From a virus (lineage: Duplodnaviria > Caudoviricetes): a DNA stretch of 64,000 bases. Position numbers and translations under genes: made by a program. Below, piece after piece: positions 19,716 to 20,122 of this stretch. The stretch spans positions 169,330-233,329 of the IMG/VR virus record IMGVR_UViG_3300031555_003626, one strand, 5' to 3'. Within the stretch, counting starts at the first letter, position 1. Each line of letters starts with the position of its first letter. Under the pieces are notes generated by a model that saw only the letters and a list, made by a program, of their open reading frames with translations, had not been told where the DNA came from and ran no database searches.

Positions 19716-19828
19716 AGAGCCAATGCTTATTTCTTTGCCTGTTAAGCCGTGTGTCGCAGGTTCGAATCCTGCCATCCCGCTGCAGTGGGATGTAGCTCAG
19801 TGGTAGAGCAACGATTATTAGCTTGGCC
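19716..19828 (+). ncRNA. Y-RNA-like family member 2 carrying circularly permuted tRNA-Asn(GUU)-like module
   Basis: Conserved ends GCCAA-T-GCT/AGC-TTGGC; inside CTGTTAA, T arm GCAGG-TTCGAAT-CCTGC, acceptor CATCCCGC-TGCA-GTGGGATG, D arm GCTC-AGTGGTA-GAGC; own promoter at 19701. Confidence 0.75.
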
Positions 19829-19881
19829 AAAAATTAATATTAAAGCAAAATTTGCTATTAATCTATCGTATAATATAACAT

Positions 19882-19999
19882 AGAGCCAATACTTATTTCT
19901 TTAATGCTGGGGACTGCGATCGTAGGTTCGACTCCTGCCCCGCCGACCAATCGGTGGGTAGCCAAGCGGTAAGGCAGCGGTTAAATTAATAGTTTGGCC
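19882..19999 (+). ncRNA. Y-RNA-like family member 3 carrying a circularly permuted tRNA module
   Basis: Ends GCCAA-T-ACT/AGT-TTGGC; T arm GTAGG-TTCGACT-CCTGC, acceptor CCCGCCGA-CCAA-TCGGTGGG, D arm GCC-AAGCGGTAA-GGC; own promoter at 19867. Confidence 0.75.
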
Positions 20000-20008
20000 A
20001 AAAAGTTT

Positions 20009-20122
20009 AGAACCAATGCTTATTTCTTATGATTTTCCAGCTGGCCGTGCGGGTTCGATTCCCGTCGCTCGCAGAGCGGGTGTAGCTCAATGGTAGAGTT
20101 CCAGCTTTCATTTAGCTTGGTC
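20009..20122 (+). ncRNA. Y-RNA-like family member 4 carrying circularly permuted tRNA-Gly(UCC)-like module
   Basis: Ends ACCAA-T-GCT/AGC-TTGGT; TTCCA-GCTGG, T arm GCGGG-TTCGATT-CCCGT, acceptor CGCTCGC-AGA-GCGGGTG, D arm, CCAGC. Confidence 0.75.

What the first reader, a model, noticed from the sequence alone, without database searches (positions are those of the whole stretch)
19716..20122. Three tandem circularly permuted tRNA modules that keep anticodon-loop remnants (Asn GUU, Gly UCC, third unclear)
Seen: in each, the order is 3' half (anticodon remnant, V, T arm, acceptor 3' strand), a 3-4 nt loop, then the 5' half (acceptor 5' strand, D arm). One keeps A-CCA inside the closing loop. The intact CTGTTAA and TTCCA sequences sit single-stranded next to the conserved handle. 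Inference: these mimic tRNAs opened at the anticodon, i.e. decoys or substrates for anticodon nucleases and RNA repair. Alternatively they are precursors of permuted tRNAs like those of red algae and archaea, which would need circularisation.
Basis: partly seen in the sequence, partly recalled or inferred. Interest (0 to 1): 0.75.

Follow-up and report, generated by a model that had tools for sequence, protein, structure and literature searches.

The report
Phage tRNA-mimic Y-like small RNAs
Three neighbouring small RNA genes of a 233-kb uncultured phage each encode a complete "inside-out" tRNA look-alike mounted on a conserved stem, and they belong to a widespread, apparently undescribed family of phage RNAs that display tRNA parts and travel with one uncharacterised protein, much like the Ro60/Y-RNA particles of bacteria.

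Summary
Window 19716-19828, 19882-19999 and 20009-20122 each read: 5' handle, anticodon-type 7-mer, anticodon-stem 3' strand, variable loop, T arm, closed acceptor hairpin, D arm, anticodon-stem 5' strand, 3' handle. Across 14 relatives 96% of cells pair and 21 of 29 pairs covary.

They are not tRNAs cut open at the anticodon, and probably not permuted tRNA precursors. The topology is that of YrlA-type bacterial Y RNAs, but Rfam RF02553 scores stay below threshold. The basal stem is of a new kind: AGAGC-NNN-Y-RCUUAUUUCU ... AGY-NNN-GCC. This handle occurs seven times in the window and on 67 distinct modules in other phages. Its cargo varies: bare anticodon stem-loops, D arm plus anticodon arm, T arm plus acceptor hairpin, or whole tRNA mimics.

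All 13 loci fetched through the neighbouring 659-aa protein carry such RNAs beside the gene. That protein has a helical domain plus a TerD domain, no TROVE match, and only weak structural likeness to Ro60. An RNA end-healing kinase gene lies just upstream.

Best reading: a Y-RNA-like ribonucleoprotein that displays tRNA mimics, probably for tRNA damage control. The function is untested. Earlier notes of this scan reached the same reading on other genomes.

The parts
19716..19828 (+). Module 1: Y-like RNA with an asparagine-type tRNA mimic. Handle stem 19719-19723 / 19823-19827, bulged U 19724, 3-bp stem 19725-19727 / 19820-19822, invariant UAUUUCU 19728-19734. Cis mini-stem GC 19737-19738, loop CUGUUAA 19739-19745, anticodon-stem 3' strand 19746-19750. 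T arm 19756-19772. Acceptor hairpin 19773-19779 / 19786-19792 with loop UGCA. D arm 19795-19809. Anticodon-stem 5' strand 19811-19813.
   Evidence: Sequence; Rfam YrlA 43 bits; model R1 110 bits; covariation; ARAGORN calls the re-ordered sequence tRNA-Asn(GUU)
19882..19999 (+). Module 2: Y-like RNA with a proline-like tRNA mimic. Loop GCUGGGG 19906-19912. Acceptor 3' strand 19939-19945, followed by A73-CCA at 19946-19949 inside the closing loop. Acceptor 5' strand 19952-19958. Anticodon stem ACUGC 19913-19917 / GCGGU 19977-19981.
   Evidence: 24 bits; 102.6 bits; C1-G72 and A73-CCA as in the phage tRNA-Pro
20009..20122 (+). Module 3: Y-like RNA with a glycine-like tRNA mimic (or Glu). Handle first pair is A-U (AGAAC...GGUC). 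Extra helix AUGA/UCAU. 7-mer bulge UUUUCCA 20033-20039. Anticodon stem GCUGG 20040-20044 / CCAGC 20101-20105. Acceptor hairpin 20066-20072 / 20076-20082 with loop AGA.
   Evidence: 31.9 bits over the full YrlA model; 103.6 bits
19679..19708 (+). Sigma-70-like promoter (TTAAAA-18-TATAAT) that would start transcription at about 19715-19716, the first base of the module 1 handle. A similar TATAAT precedes module 2. Modules 2 and 3 are only 9 nt apart, so they are probably co-transcribed.
   Evidence: sequence. A consensus match only.
17476..17533 (+). Short handle RNA whose cargo is one hairpin with loop UUUGGGA (Pro UGG type, G37). It ends about 100 nt upstream of the start codon of the 659-aa protein gene.
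   Evidence: 32.9 bits. The same arrangement is seen in all 13 loci fetched through the protein.
17635..19614 (+). 659-aa protein, the proposed partner of the handle RNAs. N-terminal helical repeat domain (about 1-400) plus a TerD-fold domain (427-588).
   Evidence: AF2 pLDDT 94; TerD Z 13.4; no Pfam or PDB sequence match; weak whole-length alignments to Ro60; synteny with the RNAs
16457..17383 (+). 308-aa P-loop polynucleotide kinase with a C-terminal HD/HDIG-type phosphohydrolase region. Candidate RNA end-healing enzyme.
   Evidence: AAA_33 2e-25; phrog_505 polynucleotide kinase; TIGR04075 bacterial Pnkp 1e-17 and HDIG 4e-4, the latter below cut-off; HD motifs in the translation
27116..27172 (+). 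Short handle RNA (stem GCUUG/CAAGC) with a hairpin whose loop is UUGAUAU (Ile GAU type).
27196..27298 (+). Handle RNA (stem GCUCG/CGAGC) carrying a different, non-tRNA structured cargo. An orthologue lies at L051:1561 / L069:2103.
   Evidence: 27.6 bits
27310..27368 (+). Short handle RNA (stem GCCUA/UAGGC) with a hairpin whose loop is UUUAGGA (Leu UAG type, G37). It lies directly upstream of tRNA-Met and tRNA-Thr.
   Evidence: 35.8 bits

Best explanation
Each module is a small non-coding RNA of about 113-118 nt built on the plan of a bacterial Y RNA. Its 5' and 3' ends pair into a conserved 'handle'. The handle has a 5-bp stem, a single bulged pyrimidine, a 3-bp stem, and then an internal loop that begins with the invariant UAUUUCU. 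This handle carries an effector module. In these three RNAs the effector is a complete tRNA mimic, of Asn-, Pro- and Gly-like type. Its acceptor end is closed by a loop and its 7-nt anticodon loop is displayed next to the handle. Those points are shown by sequence and covariation.

The following steps are inferred. The handle is the binding site of the 659-aa helical/TerD protein encoded between the handle RNAs, giving a ribonucleoprotein analogous to Ro60-Y RNA. The tRNA-shaped or anticodon-loop cargo lets the particle engage proteins that recognise tRNAs. The most likely such proteins are host anticodon nucleases, or the phage's own end-healing and ligase enzymes. The particle would then act in tRNA damage control during infection, as bait, sponge or repair platform. 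Modules with a 7-8-bp acceptor stem may additionally be opened by RNase P and CCA-tailed, as happens to Mycobacterium smegmatis YrlA.

My odds: about 0.85 that these are handle-family Y-like tRNA-mimic RNAs; about 0.6 that the 659-aa protein is the partner; about 0.3 that the role is defence against tRNA-cutting enzymes or tRNA repair.
For: Fold. Rfam YrlA matches all three modules with the same topology. Covariation supports the handle, anticodon stem, T arm, acceptor hairpin and D arm. The tertiary-contact nucleotides are invariant, and the 15-48 pair switches from G-C to A-U in module 3 and in L004:4040-4161.

Handle. Of 100 unique matches to the 5' motif in IMG/VR, 61 have an AGY plus perfectly complementary 5-mer 25-200 nt downstream. 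The swapped-stem control gives 2.4%. At least 13 different stems are seen. The C after the 3' strand is invariant although it was not imposed by the search. The covariance model also finds variants that lie outside my search pattern yet keep CUUAUUUC.

Cargo. 22 of 40 seven-nt hairpin loops in the short modules have the Y32-U33-R37 anticodon signature, against 1.7 (maximum 8) in shuffled cargo. Position 37 matches the anticodon type: NNU and NNA with A37, UGG and UAG with G37.

Partner. All 13 loci fetched through the protein alone (48-79% identity) carry model hits on the same strand, directly upstream of the gene and in most cases also downstream. A homologue at 34% identity on a GC-rich contig still has GCUUAUUUCU and a closing stem upstream of the gene. 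Ro60 structures are the only long alignments to the protein model: 1yvp Z 5.9 over 297 residues, phage phiLo Ro60 Z 6.8 over 203 residues of the N-domain, 2nvo Z 4.9 over 287 residues.

Context. A kinase/HD end-healing gene is adjacent. Rnl1- and Rnl2-like ligases are in the genome. [quoted passage not shown]
Against: No expression, binding or functional data exist. The protein has no TROVE match and no sequence match to any solved structure. The Ro60 alignments score Z 5-7 with rmsd 5.6-6.9 A, which the tool states is within the background for helical repeat proteins. The C-terminal domain is TerD, not vWA. The handle lacks the GNCGAAN0-1G motif that defines bacterial Y RNAs. The synteny comes mostly from one clade of large phages, so it could reflect conserved gene order rather than a functional link. 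One homologue, in a conjugative-element context (L100/L101), showed no such RNA. The repair or anti-nuclease role rests on neighbourhood and analogy only.
Confidence: 0.6

Rival explanations
1. Stand-alone decoys or sponges. The RNAs act without a dedicated protein as competitive substrates for host anticodon nucleases or tRNA-modifying enzymes. The handle only stabilises them, marks processing sites in the long tRNA-array transcript, and holds the two halves together after a cut so that the phage kinase and ligase can reseal them.
For: Anticodon-type loops are the commonest cargo, and position 37 fits the anticodon type. Orthologous modules change only the triplet, GUU / GCU / UUU / UGU / UCU within GCCU-NNN-AAGCC, as expected if the target is matched. 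End-healing and ligase genes are present. Tandem arrays with 10-27-nt spacers imply processing.
Against: A mere stabilising stem would not need an invariant single-stranded UAUUUCU, a fixed bulge and an invariant 3' C kept across protein divergence down to 34% identity. Some cargo is not tRNA-like at all (27196-27298). The strict association with one protein gene is left unexplained.
Confidence: 0.2
2. Canonical Y RNAs (YrlA orthologues) that work with the host's own Ro60/Rsr rather than with a phage protein.
For: YrlA is the only Rfam family that matches. Module 1 reads GCCAAUGCUU where the YrlA consensus reads GGCGAAUGCUU. Some gut bacteria have TROVE proteins (control genomes).
Against: Scores of 24-43 bits lie under the gathering score of 69. 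The positions that correspond to CGAA vary and covary with the 3' strand, so they are stem, not motif. No TROVE gene is found in this phage or in five complete relatives. The host is unknown.
Confidence: 0.08
3. Circularly permuted tRNA genes. The handle is cut away, the ends are ligated in the anticodon arm to give a circle, and RNase P plus 3' processing open the acceptor loop to release functional tRNAs.
For: When re-ordered, module 1 gives a flawless tRNA-Asn(GUU) with anticodon stem ACGGC/GCCGU. Several modules encode N73-CCA in the closing loop (module 2; L031:7843; L057:967). In L059:10894 the two acceptor ends are separated by a whole extra module. The phage has RNA ligases and tRNA genes with tRNA-shaped inserts (earlier notes).
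Against: 37 of 67 modules are 75 nt or shorter and carry only a hairpin. There is no bulge-helix-bulge: the handle has a 1-nt bulge and a 9 x 6-nt internal loop. No splicing endonuclease is known in bacteria or phages (background knowledge). Normal tRNA-Asn(GUU) and tRNA-Pro(UGG) genes exist. The GCU version lacks a long variable arm. Module 2 has C at position 33, and module 3 has C37 if read as UUC.
Confidence: 0.07
4. Decaying tandem tRNA genes or chance tRNA-dimer junctions without function.
For: A tRNA-tRNA junction gives the same order, T arm then acceptor then D arm. PMC4201824 warns of this false positive.
Against: Compensatory changes in every helix, conserved handle flanks and conserved position beside one gene in many contigs.
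Confidence: 0.02

Closest known systems
YrlA / YrlB bacterial and phage Y RNAs with Ro60 (Rsr); Rfam RF02553; Chen et al. 2014, PMC4201824
   Same: The 5' and 3' ends form a basal stem with an internal loop. The effector module is a tRNA mimic in the order T arm, closed acceptor-like hairpin, D arm, with tRNA tertiary nucleotides and a covarying 15-48 pair. Shorter siblings without the full mimic are encoded nearby. The genes sit beside that of the presumed protein partner. There is a link to RNA repair genes.
   Different: Scores are below the Rfam threshold. There is no GNCGAAN0-1G motif; the handle is instead a covarying bulged stem followed by UAUUUCU. A complete anticodon loop is displayed. 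The cargo is far more varied. The neighbouring protein has no TROVE match and carries TerD instead of vWA.
Thermus phage phiLo Ro60 with Yrl1 and Yrl2 (PMC12135203; PDB 9L5Y, 9KOP)
   Same: A phage-encoded ring-type RNA-binding protein with two Y-like RNA genes next to it. It is the best long structural alignment to the N-terminal domain here (Z 6.8, 203 residues).
   Different: phiLo Ro60 is a recognisable TROVE/vWA protein and its RNAs carry the CGAA motif. Neither holds here, and the structural score is not above background.
Circularly permuted tRNA genes of Cyanidioschyzon merolae and some archaea (background knowledge)
   Same: The 3' half is encoded upstream of the 5' half, the acceptor ends are joined by a short linker, and leader and trailer pair.
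   Different: Those genes use a bulge-helix-bulge motif and a splicing endonuclease and give functional tRNAs through a circular intermediate. Here there is no such motif, and the same stem also carries non-tRNA cargo.
Phage T4 Pnkp and Rnl1 repair of tRNA-Lys cut by the PrrC anticodon nuclease (background knowledge; reviewed for jumbo phages in PMC7824862)
   Same: The phage has a polynucleotide kinase with a phosphoesterase domain and an Rnl1-family ligase. Lys(UUU)-type anticodon loops are common cargo in the RNA family.
   Different: T4 has no known RNA decoys or Y-like RNAs. Any link between these RNAs and repair is inferred.

Membership tests
YrlA-type Y RNA (Rfam RF02553) | tRNA-like domain in the order T arm, closed acceptor-like hairpin, D arm, enclosed by a stem | tested here: met
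   cmscan alignments. 96% of cells paired and 21 of 29 pairs covarying.
YrlA-type Y RNA (Rfam RF02553) | Conserved tRNA tertiary nucleotides and a covarying Levitt pair 15-48 | tested here: met
   U8, A9, A14, G18, G19, A21, G53, U54, U55, C56, A58 and C61 are invariant in A3. G15-C48 in 11 sequences; A15-U48 in 2 of the 3 sequences with A15.
YrlA-type Y RNA (Rfam RF02553) | Score at or above the family gathering score (69 bits) | tested here: not met
   43.0, 31.9 and 24.0 bits
YrlA-type Y RNA (Rfam RF02553) | 5' Ro60-binding motif GNCGAAN0-1G (PMC4201824) | tested here: not met
   The corresponding positions vary (CCAA, CCUA, CUUG, CUCG ...) and covary with the 3' strand. The conserved element is UAUUUCU instead.
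YrlA-type Y RNA (Rfam RF02553) | Encoded next to a Ro60/Rsr (TROVE) gene | tested here: not met
   No Pfam TROVE match in this phage or in five complete relatives. The neighbour is a helical plus TerD protein.
YrlA-type Y RNA (Rfam RF02553) | Bound by Ro60; carries tRNA-type modifications | not testable with these tools
   Needs immunoprecipitation and modification mapping.
Permuted tRNA genes (red-alga / archaeal type) | 3' half upstream of 5' half; re-ordering gives a cloverleaf | tested here: met
   ARAGORN calls the re-ordered sequences tRNAs. Module 1 gives a perfect Asn(GUU).
Permuted tRNA genes (red-alga / archaeal type) | Bulge-helix-bulge motif at the leader-trailer junction | tested here: not met
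   The handle is 5 bp, a 1-nt bulge and 3 bp, followed by an asymmetric internal loop of about 9 x 6 nt in module 1.
Permuted tRNA genes (red-alga / archaeal type) | All members can mature into a tRNA | tested here: not met
   37 of 67 distinct modules with the same handle are 75 nt or shorter and hold only a hairpin.
Permuted tRNA genes (red-alga / archaeal type) | Circular intermediate and re-ordered mature tRNA | not testable with these tools
   Needs RNA sequencing of infected cells.
Ro60 / TROVE protein (for the 659-aa neighbour) | TROVE domain detectable by sequence | tested here: not met
   No Pfam TROVE match for the query or for 59 homologues. No PDB sequence match, even with a profile.
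Ro60 / TROVE protein (for the 659-aa neighbour) | HEAT-repeat ring fold | tested here: inconclusive
   Long but weak alignments to three Ro60 structures, Z 4.9-6.8 and rmsd 5.6-6.9 A. A BFVD TROVE protein matches with probability 0.95 and E 0.013. This is within the background for helical repeats.
Ro60 / TROVE protein (for the 659-aa neighbour) | C-terminal vWA domain with MIDAS | tested here: not met
   The C-terminal domain is a TerD fold (Z 13.4 to 2qz7; Foldseek E 1e-4 to 2kxt).

The most novel reading that the evidence does not exclude
The handle RNAs and the helical/TerD protein form a previously undescribed ribonucleoprotein. Its RNA subunits would be an exchangeable library of 'anticodon displays': bare anticodon stem-loops, half tRNAs and whole inside-out tRNAs. 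The displayed triplet is swapped between related phages to match whichever tRNAs the host's tRNA-cutting defences attack. The particle would capture those nucleases, or present cut decoys to the adjacent end-healing enzyme and the phage ligases. That would make it a new class of phage counter-defence, built by convergence on the Ro60/Y-RNA plan.
Probability: 0.25. Interest if true: 0.85.

Novelty: new variant of a known kind. Interest (0 to 1): 0.7.

Why it matters
Y RNAs and Ro60 are conserved from bacteria to humans, yet the purpose of the tRNA-like module of bacterial Y RNAs is still unknown. This finding offers a second, sequence-unrelated handle and a different protein that use the same design. 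Here the cargo ranges from a bare anticodon loop to a whole tRNA mimic, which points to recognition of the anticodon loop as the key activity. The system sits among tRNA genes, RNA end-healing and ligase genes and GOLLD/ROOL RNAs of large phages. It may therefore open an experimental route into how phages protect translation from tRNA-cutting defences. It also shows that many 'odd tRNA-like' stretches in phage tRNA arrays are a distinct RNA family that no catalogue covers.

Tried and rejected
- Rfam at gathering thresholds found nothing at the three modules. Only the relaxed scan gave sub-threshold YrlA hits. A relaxed scan of 27050-27400 gave no meaningful family.
- A first whole-genome pattern search failed because my pattern had one N too many. 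It was corrected in scripts.
- Two further 'handle-like' places elsewhere in the genome (G000 about 123598 and 131081) turned out to be a terminator-like hairpin and coding sequence. Model R1 finds family members only inside the window.
- The handle shows no hammerhead, twister, pistol or hatchet core by inspection, and no Rfam ribozyme matched. The self-cleaving ribozyme idea was dropped.
- The bulge-helix-bulge reading was rejected by inspection.
- The modules are not recent copies of the phage's own tRNAs: identity is 61-72%, the generic tRNA level.
- The 659-aa protein has no Pfam, PDB-sequence or PADLOC match. NCBIfam gives only a partial match to the MXAN_6230/SCO0854 family, far below its cut-off. 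Foldseek against PDB found only the TerD domain.
- tblastn against 50,697 deposited phage genomes found no close relative, so no host could be named.
The single protein was used instead.
- Complex prediction was not used, because it does not take RNA.
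Full report
**Setting**

The window is the last 64 kb of a 233,329-base IMG/VR phage record that CheckV rates complete. It holds a long non-coding stretch with 13 ARAGORN tRNAs, several tRNA genes carrying large inserts, and a GOLLD RNA. The finding lies at the upstream edge of this array.

Each of the three stretches 19716-19828, 19882-19999 and 20009-20122 reads in this order:
- a conserved 5' segment;
- a 7-nt anticodon-type sequence;
- the 3' strand of an anticodon stem and a 4-5-nt variable loop;
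- a canonical T arm;
- a 7-bp acceptor helix whose two strands are joined by a short loop (UGCA; A-CCA-AU; AGA);
- U8-A9 and a canonical D arm;
- the 5' strand of the anticodon stem;
- a conserved 3' segment.

ARAGORN does not call these stretches, but it calls them tRNAs once the halves are re-ordered. Re-ordered module 1 is a flawless tRNA-Asn(GUU).

I aligned 14 modules of this type from 8 phage contigs and counted pairs for the structure I had written:
- 96.0% of cells form standard pairs, against 32-46% when partners are slid by 1-3 columns.
- 21 of 29 pairs show changes on both sides.
- All seven acceptor pairs covary.
- No shuffle out of 500 reaches the observed values.

The nucleotides that make the tRNA elbow and core are invariant: U8, A14, G18, G19, G53, U54, U55, C56 and A58. 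The 15-48 pair is G-C in 11 sequences and A-U in two of the three sequences that have A15. An L-shaped fold is therefore very likely.

**Where the anticodon loop sits**

In module 1 and its relatives the 7-mer (CU-NNN-AA) is closed by 2-3 base pairs in cis. These covary (GC/GC, CGG/CCG, CGC/GCG, GGA/UCC) and stack under three pairs made in trans with the far end of the RNA. The anticodon arm is thus whole, and the RNA ends leave it between positions 29 and 30.

In modules 2 and 3 the 5-bp anticodon stem is made entirely in trans. The 7-mer is a one-sided bulge between that stem and a further short helix. The loop is displayed, not cut.

Its loop is GCUGGGG, and it has C1-G72 with A73-CCA, as in the phage's own tRNA-Pro. 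Module 3 has a body beginning GCGGG and UUCCA in the loop.

**The conserved flanks are the key**

They form a 'handle': AGAGC-NNN-Y-RCU-UAUUUCU at the 5' end and AGY-NNN-GCC at the 3' end. This folds as a 5-bp stem, one bulged pyrimidine and a 3-bp stem.

The handle occurs seven times in the window: at 17476, 19716, 19882, 20009, 27116, 27196 and 27310. It occurs nowhere else in the genome.

A scan of IMG/VR for the 5' half alone gave 96 stretches. Of 100 unique matches, 61 have AGY plus a perfect Watson-Crick complement of their own 5-mer 25-200 nt downstream. When stems are swapped between matches, only 2.4% do (maximum 8%). The 39 matches without a partner look like chance hits in coding sequence.

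At least 13 different stems are used. The first pair switches from G-C to A-U in module 3 and its relatives. The C after the 3' strand is invariant although my search did not ask for it. The covariance model built later also finds variants outside my pattern (GACUA/UAGUC; UAUUUCA), and these keep CUUAUUUC.

**The cargo varies**

Among the 67 distinct modules recovered the cargo is one of the following:
- a single hairpin with a 7-nt loop;
- a D-arm-like hairpin followed by an anticodon arm;
- a T arm followed by a closed acceptor hairpin;
- a whole inside-out tRNA mimic, as in these three modules;
- a tRNA-like body in normal order (L019:656, L035:682);
- a nested case, in which the two acceptor ends of a permuted tRNA are joined by another complete handle module (L059:10894);
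- some non-tRNA structures (for example window 27196-27298).

The hairpin loops are anticodon loops. In the 37 modules of 75 nt or less, 22 of 40 seven-nt loops closed by at least 4 bp have pyrimidine-32, U33 and purine-37. Shuffled cargo gives 1.7 (maximum 8). Position 37 fits the anticodon type: UUUGGGA (Pro UGG, G37), CUUUUAA (Lys), CUGCAAA (Cys), CUGGAAA and UUUGAAA (Ser), CUUGUAA (Thr), UUUAGGA (Leu UAG, G37).

Orthologues of module 1 keep the body and the frame GCCU-NNN-AAGCC but change the triplet: GUU (window, L007), GCU (L003), UUU (L025, L111), UGU (L035, L057) and UCU (L004). The GCU version has no long variable arm, so it could not be a serine tRNA.

**What this resembles**

The only Rfam family that responds is YrlA, the tRNA-mimicking Y RNA that bacteria and some phages encode beside Ro60/Rsr. 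It scores 43, 31.9 and 24 bits against a gathering score of 69. The model has the same topology: T arm, closed hairpin and D arm inside a stem.

Chen et al. (PMC4201824) define YrlA by this domain, by a 5' GNCGAAN0-1G motif and by its position next to Rsr. They also show that M. smegmatis YrlA, which has a 7-bp acceptor-like stem, is cut by RNase P and CCA-tailed.

Here the domain criterion is met but the other two are not. The motif positions are variable stem positions. Neither this phage nor five complete 220-237-kb relatives has a TROVE gene detectable with Pfam.

**The neighbours**

Between the short handle RNA at 17476-17533 and module 1 lies a 659-aa gene (17635-19614) with a strong Shine-Dalgarno sequence.
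- It has no Pfam, PADLOC or PDB-sequence match.
- It has 945 representative relatives at E up to 0.001 in the 1.84-billion-protein library.
- An AlphaFold model from 60 homologues has mean pLDDT 94.
- Residues 427-588 are a TerD fold (Z 13.4, rmsd 2.3 A).
- The N-terminal roughly 400 residues are helical repeats.
- The only long alignments are to Ro60: 1yvp (Z 5.9, 297 residues), Thermus phage phiLo Ro60 9l5y (Z 5.4 for the whole model; Z 6.8 over 203 residues for the N-domain modelled alone) and Deinococcus Rsr 2nvo (Z 4.9, 287 residues). BFVD lists a TROVE protein of an uncultured phage at probability 0.95 and E 0.013.

These scores are within the background the tool quotes for helical repeats. 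Kinship with Ro60 therefore remains open.

The link between this protein and the RNAs is stronger. All 13 loci fetched from IMG/VR through the protein alone (48-79% identity) have covariance-model hits on the same strand. Each has a short handle RNA ending 50-250 nt before the start codon, and most have tRNA-mimic modules just after the stop codon. A homologue of 34% identity on a GC-rich contig still has GCUUAUUUCU with a closing stem about 85 nt upstream. A 26%-identity homologue sits directly after a tRNA array with a ROOL RNA. One homologue in a conjugative-element context showed no such RNA.

Immediately upstream, at 16457-17383, is a polynucleotide kinase fused to an HD/HDIG-type phosphohydrolase region. 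This gene is conserved in the same position in 8 related loci. The genome also encodes Rnl1- and Rnl2-like RNA ligases but no RtcB.

**Interpretation**

What the evidence shows is a family of small RNAs with a covarying handle and tRNA-derived cargo, tightly linked to one protein gene.

What I infer is that the handle binds that protein and the cargo engages tRNA-recognising proteins, as Y RNAs tether Ro60 to other factors (PMC4201824, PMC12135203). Three things make tRNA damage control the most economical purpose: the emphasis on intact anticodon loops, the swapping of the triplet, and the adjacent end-healing enzyme. The particle could bait or sponge host anticodon nucleases, or act as a platform that presents cut substrates for resealing. 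I give that about 0.3.

The permuted-tRNA reading explains the perfect cloverleaves and the encoded CCA. It fails on the hairpin-only members, the absence of a bulge-helix-bulge, the redundancy with normal tRNA genes and the triplet swaps.

**Known or new**

The held literature describes phage Ro60 with Y-like RNAs (PMC12135203, PMC7824862). It holds nothing that joins TerD with Ro60 or Y RNA, and I found no description of this handle.

Earlier notes of this scan, on at least eight other genomes and on the 17433-17634 stretch of this one, describe Y-like tRNA-mimic RNAs paired with a helical/TerD protein. I reached the same reading before seeing them. They are unchecked AI notes, not independent evidence.

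What this window adds:
- three tandem mimics of different amino-acid types;
- the composite anticodon arm;
- statistical evidence that anticodon loops are the family's common cargo;
- the triplet swaps;
- the kinase/HD neighbour.

Noticed in passing
window 26207-26358 (+), inside GOLLD 26165-26678: The covariance model of the inside-out tRNA modules hits a stretch inside the GOLLD RNA (35.3 bits, E 4e-5). The stretch has a T-arm-like hairpin, then an acceptor 3' strand, an insert of about 45 nt, an acceptor 5' strand, UA and a D arm (GCUCAGUGCUAGAGC). This GOLLD therefore seems to embed a permuted tRNA-like element.
   Followed up: partly
window 20141-20250 (+): Directly after module 3 lies an odd tRNA-like element that ARAGORN does not call. 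Rfam matches only positions 9-63 of the tRNA model (20184-20238, 31.9 bits). Its anticodon arm is CCUCC-CUUCAAA-GGAGG (UCA, which would read UGA), and the 5' part carries an extra hairpin.
   Followed up: no
window 16457-17383 (+): A polynucleotide kinase domain is fused to an HD/HDIG-type region (motifs HDNPHH and HDIGK) rather than to the HAD phosphatase of T4 Pnkp. This is a less common end-healing architecture.
   Followed up: partly
L059:10894-11071: A nested arrangement: a permuted tRNA whose 3' end (ending CACCA) and 5' end are joined by a complete short handle module showing a UUUGGGU loop. The whole is enclosed by a second handle.
   Followed up: no
L103:298-2191 and 2370-4451: A 26%-identity homologue of the 659-aa protein lies directly after five tRNA matches (one of them just under the Rfam threshold) and a ROOL RNA (290.8 bits). 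The protein family thus keeps company with tRNA arrays and giant ornate RNAs well beyond this phage clade.
   Followed up: partly
L100:6001-8049 and L101: A 30%-identity homologue of the protein sits beside a TraG/VirD4-type coupling protein gene, so the context is a conjugative element rather than a phage. No handle or YrlA-like RNA was detected there.
   Followed up: partly
window 24742-25218 (+): An HNH endonuclease gene sits inside the tRNA array, between tRNA-Tyr and tRNA-Leu.
   Followed up: no
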